Source: Escherichia coli
GTDB lineage: Bacteria; Pseudomonadota; Gammaproteobacteria; Enterobacterales; Enterobacteriaceae
DNA: 338 nt
Strand: one strand, 5' to 3'
Assembly: GCF_003334335.1 (NCBI RefSeq)
Contig: NZ_QOWQ01000215.1
Shown: in pieces, positions 1-338 of the stretch
Numbering within the stretch: the first letter of the stretch is position 1
Layout: every line of letters starts with the position of its first letter
Position numbers and translations under genes: made by a program
The notes under the pieces: generated by a model
What the model saw: only the letters and a program-made list of their open reading frames with translations
What the model was told of the DNA's origin: nothing
Databases searched by the model: none

Positions 1-338
1 CCATACAGCACGGCATTCACCGCCTGCATTTCTTCCACCTGGACAATGGCGTGCTCTTCCTGTTTGAGGTTATCGGTGATGATACGCAGACGACGGTAGG
101 TCGGGTCGTTCAGCTGCGCCGGATCTTCACCGGGAAGGCGCTCCACCGCCTGCTGGTAATTAAATTCGTGTTTCGGCTTGACGTAGCCCGGACGTAACAC
201 GCGGGTTTCACCACCACGATGACGCAGCACTTTTCCTTCAACAACCGGGGAGACATAGGCTGCCACCGGCGTTTTTCCGGTAATTTTGTCCAGCATCACC
301 TCTTCGGTGTGGAAATTCACCGTACGGCGGAAAAACAG
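1..338 (-). CDS. E: Major capsid protein, lambda gpE family (internal fragment, truncated at both window edges); N-terminus lies beyond position 338, C-terminal ~200 codons beyond position 1
   Basis: Seen in sequence: the reverse-complement frame with codons at + 336-338 down to 3-5 is open for all 112 codons; the other two minus-strand frames hit stops within the first ~35 codons, and all three plus-strand frames contain stops. Translation: LFFRRTVNFHTEEVMLDKITGKTPVAAYVSPVVEGKVLRHRGGETRVLRPGYVKPKHEFNYQQAVERLPGEDPAQLNDPTYRRLRIITDNLKQEEHAIVQVEEMQAVNAVLY. Established knowledge (recalled, not searched): lambda gpE residues ~26-137 read LFFRESYPFTTEKVYLSQIPGLVNMALYVSPIVSGEVIRSRGGSTSEFTPGYVKPKHEVNPQMTLRRLPDEDPQNLADPAYRRRRIIMQNMRDEELAIAQVEEMQAVSAVLK. 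The two are collinear with no gaps, about 66/112 identical. Codon usage (CTG, CCG, GCG, CGT preferred) is typical of enterobacterial genes and lambdoid head genes. Confidence 0.85.
   Translation of the reverse strand, partial: MFFRRTVNFHTEEVMLDKITGKTPVAAYVSPVVEGKVLRHRGGETRVLRPGYVKPKHEFNYQQAVERLPGEDPAQLNDPTYRRLRIITDNLKQEEHAIVQVEEMQAVNAVLY

What the first reader, a model, noticed from the sequence alone, without database searches (positions are those of the whole stretch)
258..326. Strongly divergent N-proximal segment next to highly conserved blocks
Relative to lambda gpE, fragment residues 5-27 (RTVNFHTEEVMLDKITGKTPVAA against ESYPFTTEKVYLSQIPGLVNMAL) share only about 7 of 23 positions. The rest of the fragment is about 65% identical, with runs of 8-9 invariant residues. 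This uneven pattern is typical of capsid proteins, where surface-exposed or partner-contacting segments change faster than the core fold. Since lambda gpE is stabilised by the decoration protein gpD, this segment could reflect co-variation with a different decoration or scaffolding partner. That last point is speculative and cannot be tested from this window.
Basis: inference. Interest (0 to 1): 0.3.

Follow-up and report, generated by a model that had tools for sequence, protein, structure and literature searches.

The report
Phage 21-type capsid protein N-proximal segment
The window is an ordinary piece of the well-known phage-21-type major capsid gene, and the stretch that looks "strongly divergent" from lambda is not a special fast-evolving region: half of it is among the most conserved parts of the protein in its own lineage, and lambda is the one that changed.

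Summary
The minus strand of the window encodes residues 26-137 of a 342-aa lambda-E-family (PF03864, HK97-fold) major capsid protein. It is 100% identical in DNA to prophages in many E. coli genomes and 96% identical in protein to phage 21 gene 7. The flagged segment (window 258-326, residues 30-52) is 8/23 identical to lambda gpE, against 65% for the rest of the fragment. That makes it the lowest 23-residue window in the protein. However, shuffling gives an equally low window in 18-46% of trials, and two other regions are nearly as divergent.

Family alignments show the segment is a composite. Residues 30-38 vary in every clade. Residues 39-52 (VMLDKITGKTPVAA) form the third most conserved 14-residue block in the 21-like clade and keep the family-wide L-D-K-I motif. 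The lambda clade lost that motif (D42 to S/A/T, T45 to P). Most of the excess divergence therefore lies on lambda's branch.

The phage does carry a different decoration protein (SHP-type). Its N-terminal arm is far more diverged than its body, and capsid type and arm type co-occur in 241/241 loci. But the two genes are adjacent, this represents one evolutionary event, and seven outgroup pairs do not repeat the link. Physical contact could not be tested. Verdict: ordinary, already known, low interest.

The parts
1..338 (-). Internal part of the major capsid protein gene, codons 26-137 of 342. Phage-21-type, lambda gpE family.
   Evidence: Single open frame on the minus strand. 100% nt identity to PhiR5_1 'major capsid protein E' and to many E. 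coli prophages, 94% to phage 21 gene 7. Pfam PF03864 E=4.8e-66 for the full protein.
300..326 (-). Residues 30-38 (RTVNFHTEE): short strand 30-33 plus turn. The genuinely variable half of the flagged segment. Only F34 is fixed within the two clades (66% F in the outgroup); T36 is mostly kept.
   Evidence: 3/9 identical to lambda. Variability rank 43/334 in the 21-clade and 42/334 in the outgroup. AF2 strand E30-33. dN/dS 0.015 among close relatives.
258..299 (-). Residues 39-52 (VMLDKITGKTPVAA): strand 39-44 followed by the lead-in to the E-loop. Highly conserved within the 21-like clade and carries the family-wide L-D-K-I motif. The lambda clade reads V.L[SAT].IPG.V.
   Evidence: 5/14 identical to lambda. 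Rank 314/329 for variability in the 21-clade and third most conserved block. D42 is 86% in the outgroup, 100% in the 21-clade and 0% in the lambda-clade. No nonsynonymous differences among close relatives. AF2 strand E39-44.
162..257 (-). Residues 53-84: E-loop region (YVSP...RGGE...PGYVKPKHE), including the invariant run PGYVKPKHE at window 165-191.
   Evidence: 21/32 identical to lambda. Run of 9 identities starting at residue 75. AF2 strands 68-73 and 81-84, with 45-67 unstructured in the monomer model. Assignment as the E-loop is by HK97-fold topology (inference).
3..104 (-). Residues 104-137: spine helix of the P-domain, including the invariant run QVEEMQAV at window 18-41.
   Evidence: AF2 helix H104-137. 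23/34 identical to lambda. Run of 8 identities starting at residue 125.

Best explanation
SHOWN: the window is an internal part of the major capsid protein gene of a phage-21-type lambdoid prophage (HK97 fold, lambda gpE family). The flagged residues 30-52 lie between the N-arm helix (22-27) and the E-loop. They contain two short beta-strands (30-33, 39-44) and the lead-in to the E-loop. Their low identity to lambda has two unrelated sources. (a) Residues 30-38 are a moderately variable strand and turn in all clades, with alternating fixed hydrophobic positions. (b) Residues 39-52 are under very strong purifying selection in the 21-like lineage and keep the ancestral family motif L-D-K-I. The lambda lineage replaced that motif (D42 to S/A/T, T45 to P, plus sub-clade changes Y40, Q43, L47, N49). 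The window's sequence is therefore the conservative one and the lambda reference is the derived one. The clustering of differences is no greater than chance. INFERRED from HK97-fold anatomy in related capsids: these strands are the 'upper-arm' end of the N-arm and the base of the E-loop. They take part in the inter-subunit beta-sheet (neighbour's E-loop plus N-arm strand) to which the N-terminal arm of the decoration protein (SHP here, gpD in lambda) adds a further strand. Their job would then be to interlock capsomers rather than to act as a fast-evolving surface epitope.
For: Identity of the gene. Predicted fold matches lambda gpE 8k39 with TM 0.85. Secondary structure H22-27, E30-33, E39-44, H104-137. 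Composite conservation: in the 21-clade, 39-52 ranks 314/329 and 30-38 ranks 43/334; block 38-51 is the third most conserved 14-mer. Polarity: outside the segment the outgroup favours 21-type and lambda-type residues 50:51, inside it 10:3. Mean identity to the outgroup is W 0.330 overall / 0.295 in the segment, and lambda 0.332 / 0.215 (0.181 in 39-52). D42 is one of only four family-conserved residues lost in the lambda clade. Purifying selection: dN/dS 0.015 (30-38) and 0 (39-52) among close relatives, against 0.13-0.24 in 253-275. No excess clustering. Anatomy of the sheet: PMC5701804, PMC7385642, PMC6775164.
Against: The polarity test has small numbers (10:3 vs 50:51, Fisher p=0.08). The structural role is inferred. 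No residue-level contact map of gpE 30-52 was available, and the AF2 monomer model leaves 45-67 unstructured with pLDDT about 67-72. It is not established whether strand 30-33, strand 39-44 or the extreme N-terminus (disordered in the model) is the strand that joins the neighbour's E-loop. Clade samples come from database searches seeded with W and lambda, though their internal diversity is matched (0.736 vs 0.745).
Confidence: 0.75

Rival explanations
1. Co-adaptation with the decoration protein. The lambda-versus-21 difference in residues 39-52 was selected to fit gpD-type versus SHP-type N-terminal arms, so the segment is a partner-specificity determinant.
For: The adjacent gene is SHP-type, 51% identical to gpD. 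Its arm is 3/16 identical plus a 3-residue indel against a body 53/93 identical, Fisher p=0.006. Each clade has its own conserved arm motif..R[IV]F[AS]G[NS]D versus F.H.QP[LQ]G. Capsid type and arm type pair perfectly in 241 loci, 157 + 84 with 0 mixed. The decoration arm joins the E-loop/N-arm sheet (PMC5701804; PMC7385642). SHP binds lambda heads, and SHP-gpD chimeric oligomers give particles of varying stability; the reference title calls lambda shp a 'fragile lattice' and Mg2+-dependent (Wendt & Feiss 2004, as cited in PMC7602432).
Against: D and E are about 56 nt apart and inherited together, so the perfect association amounts to one evolutionary event. Within each clade the arm varies a lot while capsid 39-46 stays fixed. 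In seven outgroup capsid-decoration pairs the arms are hypervariable while L-D-K-I persists, and capsid P45 does not predict a QPxG arm (P0223 has P45 with an 'HAGD' arm). In the related P74-26 capsid the Dec-arm pairs with the E-loop on the outer surface while the N-arm strand pairs with it along the inner surface (PMC6775164), so by analogy the two need not touch. Contact of 30-52 with gpD was not testable.
Confidence: 0.2
2. Co-variation with another partner: the neighbouring subunit's E-loop (capsid-capsid interface), the scaffold Nu3, or the packaging chaperone FI.
For: Nu3 and FI are the most diverged head proteins between this phage and lambda, about 30% identical against 50-79% for the others. 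E-loop residues 69-74 differ at 5 of 6 positions. N-arm strands pair with the adjacent E-loop in nearly all HK97 folds (PMC6775164; PMC7385642).
Against: There is no direct evidence that 30-52 contacts Nu3 or FI. Overall E-loop identity (66%) is not reduced. The same one-event linkage problem applies, because all head genes travel as one module.
Confidence: 0.15
3. Diversifying selection to escape host immune sensors that recognise capsid protein, or a mosaic recombination patch imported from a distant allele.
For: Lambda gpE monomer is the trigger of the Avs8 defence system (PMC12236752). Lambdoid genomes are mosaic (general knowledge).
Against: dN/dS in the segment is 0-0.015 among close relatives, lower than the rest of the protein. 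Avs8 is reported to recognise HK97-fold capsid proteins sharing <15% sequence identity, so its authors suggest recognition is buffered against sequence change. Flanking regions and the whole head module are uniformly 50-69% diverged, and differences are not clustered beyond chance.
Confidence: 0.04

Closest known systems
Phage 21 gene 7 product (major capsid protein) with its decoration protein SHP
   Same: 96.2% protein identity over 342 aa. Within the window there are only two differences, A99S and T105A, and the flagged segment is identical. The gene order is the same: Nu1-A-W-B-C/Nu3-shp-capsid-FI-FII. The decoration protein is 93% identical to the phage 21 decoration protein (SHP).
   Different: 94% nucleotide identity rather than 100%. 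The window's exact allele is that of phage PhiR5_1 and of prophages in E. coli O104:H4 and other strains.
Lambda gpE (PDB 7VI9, 7VIK, 8K39, 7SJ5)
   Same: Same family (PF03864) and same length with a gapless alignment in the window. 61% identity overall. The predicted fold superposes with TM 0.85.
   Different: Residues 30-52 are 8/23 identical. Lambda lacks the family-conserved D42 and G95 and has P45. Its partner is gpD rather than SHP.
E. coli CFT073 prophage/satellite capsid protein (PDB 3BQW) and YSD1/Chi major capsid proteins (6XGP, 6XGQ, 8VJI)
   Same: Same family by sequence (E=4e-27 and 6e-11 for the fragment) and by fold. All keep L-D at positions 41-42 and have HDPD-type decoration genes nearby.
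   Different: 26-47% identity. There is a one-residue insertion in the 3BQW alignment within the segment. YSD1's decoration protein has an extra N-terminal hook (PMC7385642).
HK97 gp5
   Same: Same HK97 fold elements: N-arm, E-loop, spine helix, A-domain.
   Different: HK97 stabilises its shell with covalent isopeptide cross-links and has no decoration protein. The lambda/21 class uses a trimeric beta-tulip decoration protein placed over the equivalent sites (PMC5701804).

Membership tests
Phage major capsid protein E family (Pfam PF03864; lambda gpE type HK97 fold) | Full-length match to the family profile | tested here: met
   Pfam Phage_cap_E, E=4.8e-66, residues 5-341 on model positions 1-329 of 329. 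All close homologues carry PF03864.
Phage major capsid protein E family (Pfam PF03864; lambda gpE type HK97 fold) | Sequence similarity of the window fragment itself to solved gpE | tested here: met
   phmmer E=2e-35, fragment 1-111 aligned to gpE 26-136 without gaps.
Phage major capsid protein E family (Pfam PF03864; lambda gpE type HK97 fold) | HK97 fold with N-arm, E-loop and long spine helix | tested here: met
   AF2 model with pLDDT 80 and pTM 0.78, helix 104-137. Foldseek top hits are lambda gpE chains, TM 0.78-0.85, E about 1e-42.
Phage major capsid protein E family (Pfam PF03864; lambda gpE type HK97 fold) | Location in a lambda-like head module next to an HDPD-type decoration gene | tested here: met
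   Order portal, protease/scaffold, decoration, capsid, FI, FII in L001 and L002. The same holds in 241 related loci.
Phage major capsid protein E family (Pfam PF03864; lambda gpE type HK97 fold) | Assembles a T=7 shell decorated by trimers | not testable with these tools
   Needs microscopy of particles. Known for lambda and reported for SHP on phage 21 (PMC7602432).
   The 30-52 window ranks 104-113 of 320 in the outgroup and lambda-clade, and 196 of 320 in the 21-clade. Sub-segment 39-52 ranks 314/329 in the 21-clade. Only 30-38 is variable (about 42/334).
   dN/dS 0.015 (30-38) and 0 (39-52) among close relatives in both clades, against 0.13-0.24 for 253-275.
Capsid-decoration co-evolving interface | Segment physically contacts the decoration protein | not testable with these tools
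   No access to PDB coordinates, and the held papers give no residue-level contacts.
Capsid-decoration co-evolving interface | Capsid segment type and decoration-arm type associated across genomes | tested here: inconclusive
   241/241 concordant. However, the genes are adjacent and the pattern reflects a single split.
Capsid-decoration co-evolving interface | Association repeated in independent lineages | tested here: not met
   In seven outgroup pairs the arms are hypervariable and capsid P45 does not predict the arm motif. The sample is small.

The most novel reading that the evidence does not exclude
The lambda lineage made a coordinated change. It lost the family-conserved D42 and gained P45 in capsid strand 39-45, replaced the otherwise invariant G95 with D, and shortened and re-patterned the decoration protein's N-terminal arm (R[IV]F[AS]G to QP[LQ]G). 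Together these would form a lineage-specific lock between shell and cement protein that explains why SHP on a lambda shell gives a fragile, Mg2+-dependent virion. Under this reading, residues 39-52 would be a specificity determinant usable to engineer decoration-protein compatibility.
Probability: 0.15. Interest if true: 0.35.

Novelty: already known. Interest (0 to 1): 0.08.

Why it matters
It matters little. The gene is an annotated, very common E. coli prophage capsid gene: a match in 1909 of 5426 complete genomes, 1607 of them covering at least 80% of the window. Its family, fold and decoration partner are well characterised. The useful corrections are methodological. A single pairwise comparison to a reference cannot tell which lineage diverged. 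Here the reference, lambda, is the derived one, and the 'divergent' stretch contains one of the most conserved blocks of the protein in its own clade. If the capsid-decoration lock reading were true, it would give a modest handle for engineering lambda/21 display particles.

Tried and rejected
(1) Type-II divergence (both clades conserved but different). I proposed this after and rejected it with a larger lambda-clade sample. Only 2 of 11 such sites fall in 30-52 and there is no clustering. The pattern is asymmetric: conserved in the 21-clade, average in the lambda-clade.

(2) Residue-level mapping of gpE 30-52 onto the lambda capsid. The held papers give no residue numbers.

(3) Alignment-based locus search.

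(4) An R30-D42 cross-strand salt-bridge idea. In the outgroup, position 30 is not coupled to D42, so I dropped it.

(5) D42-loss and G95D-gain as a compensating pair. Two lambda-clade sequences have S42/P45 with G95 retained, so strict coupling is not supported.

(6) Other features in the window. No Rfam match on either strand at E<=1. Only two 48-aa ORFs exist in other frames, with no evidence of function.

(7) A pseudo-multimer AF2 run. I considered it and did not run it, because the tool returns no coordinates or contacts.

Full report
WHAT THE WINDOW IS.
The minus strand carries a single open frame across all 338 bases. The other frames contain stops, and only two 48-aa ORFs appear elsewhere. 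No Rfam family matches either strand. The DNA is 100% identical to the 'major capsid protein E' gene of Escherichia phage PhiR5_1 and to prophages in many E. coli genomes, including O104:H4 strains. It is 94% identical to phage 21 gene 7. 1909 of 5426 complete E. coli genomes hold a match.

In PhiR5_1 the window is bases 6001-6338 of locus L001, inside CDS 5926-6954, so the fragment is residues 26-137 of a 342-aa protein. That protein is 96.2% identical to the phage 21 capsid protein and 61% identical to lambda gpE. It matches Pfam PF03864 end to end with E=4.8e-66. Its AlphaFold model (pLDDT 80, pTM 0.78) superposes on lambda gpE chains with TM 0.78-0.85. The gene sits in a lambda-like head module directly downstream of an SHP-type decoration gene.

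CHECK OF THE OBSERVATION.
Window 258-326 on the minus strand translates to RTVNFHTEEVMLDKITGKTPVAA. This is full-length residues 30-52, aligned without gaps to lambda ESYPFTTEKVYLSQIPGLVNMAL. The rest of the fragment is 58/89 = 65%, and the invariant runs of 9 and 8 residues exist.

This is the lowest 23-residue window in the protein. However, when the identity vector is shuffled, a window this low occurs in 46% of trials for the whole protein and 18% for the fragment alone. Residues 182-204 (9/23) and 251-273 (10/23) are nearly as low. With clade consensus sequences the segment has 13 differences in 23 positions. That equals the maximum elsewhere, and the shuffle P is 0.83. The numbers are essentially right, but the clustering is not beyond chance.

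FAMILY-LEVEL CONSERVATION.
I assembled three sets:
- 45-48 non-redundant 21-like sequences, at least 62% identical to the window's protein;
- 38 lambda-like sequences;
- 71 distant representatives, 28-47% identical.

The two clade samples have matched internal diversity, with mean pairwise identity 0.736 and 0.745. The whole segment ranks 196, 113 and 112 of 320 windows for variability in the three sets. An earlier mixed alignment gave 104 of 320. It is therefore about as conserved as the average of the protein and is not a recognised variable region. The most variable regions are 253-275, 154-176, 181-204 and 290-312.

The segment is a composite:
- Residues 30-38 are variable in the 21-clade (rank 43/334) and in the outgroup (42/334).
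- Residues 39-52 rank 314/329 in the 21-clade.
- Block 38-51, EVMLDKITGKTPVA, is the third most conserved 14-mer of the whole protein there.
- Among close relatives, dN/dS is 0.015 for 30-38 and 0 for 39-52, against 0.13-0.24 for 253-275.

WHICH LINEAGE DIVERGED.
Outside the segment, at positions where the two clade consensus residues differ, the outgroup favours the 21-type and lambda-type residue equally often (50 vs 51). The window's protein and lambda are also equally distant from the outgroup overall (0.330 vs 0.332). Inside 30-52 the outgroup favours the 21-type residue 10:3. Lambda's identity to the outgroup falls to 0.215 there (0.181 in 39-52), while the window's protein stays at 0.295 (Fisher p=0.08).

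D42 is 86% conserved in the outgroup and 100% in the 21-clade, but it is S/A/T in every lambda-clade sequence. It is one of only four family-conserved residues lost in the lambda clade, together with the otherwise invariant G95. T45 versus P45 is the other clean clade marker. Deeper lambda-clade members show intermediates such as VMLSKIPG.

STRUCTURAL CONTEXT (partly inferred).
The model gives helix 22-27, strand 30-33, a turn, strand 39-44, an unstructured 45-67 (the E-loop is poorly formed in a monomer), strands 68-73 and 81-84, and the spine helix 104-137.

Papers on related capsids state the following. The N-arm's strand next to the body pairs with the E-loop of the adjacent subunit in nearly all HK97 folds. 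The decoration protein's N-terminal arm adds a strand to that E-loop sheet in lambda, YSD1 and P74-26 (PMC5701804; PMC7385642; PMC6775164).

By topology, residues 30-52 are the end of the N-arm and the base of the E-loop, so they are plausibly part of this inter-subunit sheet. I could not obtain residue-level contacts for gpE.

THE DECORATION-PARTNER IDEA.
The phage does have a different decoration protein. It is 93% identical to the phage 21 decoration protein (SHP) and 51% identical to gpD. Its N-terminal arm is 3/16 identical with a 3-residue indel, while the body is 53/93 identical (p=0.006). Each clade has its own conserved arm motif. In 241 loci with both genes, capsid type and arm type are perfectly concordant. 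A review reports that SHP binds the lambda capsid as chimeric oligomers with gpD, giving particles of varying stability, and the cited paper's title calls lambda shp a fragile, Mg2+-dependent virus (PMC7602432).

Against this:
- The genes are adjacent and inherited together, so the association is one event.
- Arms vary widely within each clade while capsid 39-46 is fixed.
- In seven outgroup pairs the arms are hypervariable while L-D-K-I persists, and capsid P45 does not predict the arm motif.
- Nu3 and FI, other gpE partners, are even more diverged at about 30% identity.

The speculation is reasonable but unproven, and this segment is not singled out by the evidence.

VERDICT.
This is a correctly identified but ordinary fragment of a very common, already annotated capsid gene. 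The 'strongly divergent segment' is numerically real but statistically unremarkable. It is not a family-wide variable region. Half of it is strongly conserved in its own lineage, with the change lying on lambda's branch. Novelty: already known. Interest: low.

Noticed in passing
L252:1-6056 (capsid 2501-3556, decoration 3568-3903): The nearest outgroup capsid is P0125, 47% identical and probably the protein of the 3BQW CFT073 structure (same length, 351 aa, and the same segment residues; not compared directly). Its locus has the order AAA_25, SSB, small ORF, capsid, HDPD decoration, then Nu1-like small terminase. The decoration gene is downstream of the capsid and no portal or protease lies upstream. 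This looks like a capsid-forming satellite rather than a phage head module.
   Followed up: no
window 54-56 (codon 95) and window 288-290 (codon 42), compared with L003: The lambda clade replaced two family-conserved residues. G95 is 100% in the outgroup and the 21-clade and became D in 36 of 38 lambda-clade sequences. D42 became S/A/T. Two lambda-clade sequences (P0340, P0342) keep G95 with S42/P45, so the two changes are not strictly coupled.
   Followed up: partly
capsid genes of L004-L249 (codons 1-52 versus 138-342): Among close relatives in both clades, synonymous diversity is lower in the first 52 codons (pS 0.05-0.13) than in codons 138-342 (0.14-0.22). This could reflect mosaic recombination in the 3' part or constraints near the gene start. 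It is unexplained.
   Followed up: no
proteins P0022, P0005, P0100, P0101, P0105, P0110: There are odd database entries. A 517-aa 'Bacillus thuringiensis' protein is 100% identical to lambda gpE over its aligned part (84% of gpE), with a two-stretch match that suggests duplication. Several ORFs fuse capsid with FI (PF14000) or with the decoration domain (PF02924). These are probably contamination or assembly and frameshift artefacts.
   Followed up: no
L001 versus L003, head genes: The scaffold Nu3 and the packaging chaperone FI are only about 30% identical between this phage and lambda, against 50-79% for the other head and tail proteins compared. The protease/scaffold C protein is 501 aa here and 439 aa in lambda.
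   Followed up: partly
window 1-338: The exact or near-exact window sequence occurs in 1909 of 5426 complete E. coli genomes, with up to 5 places per genome and almost always on the chromosome. These include the O104:H4 outbreak strains.
   Followed up: no
literature, PMC12236752: Lambda gpE monomer is reported as the direct trigger of the Avs8 STAND nuclease defence system, which recognises HK97-fold capsid proteins sharing <15% sequence identity. Whether the 21-type protein also triggers it was not addressed there.
   Followed up: no
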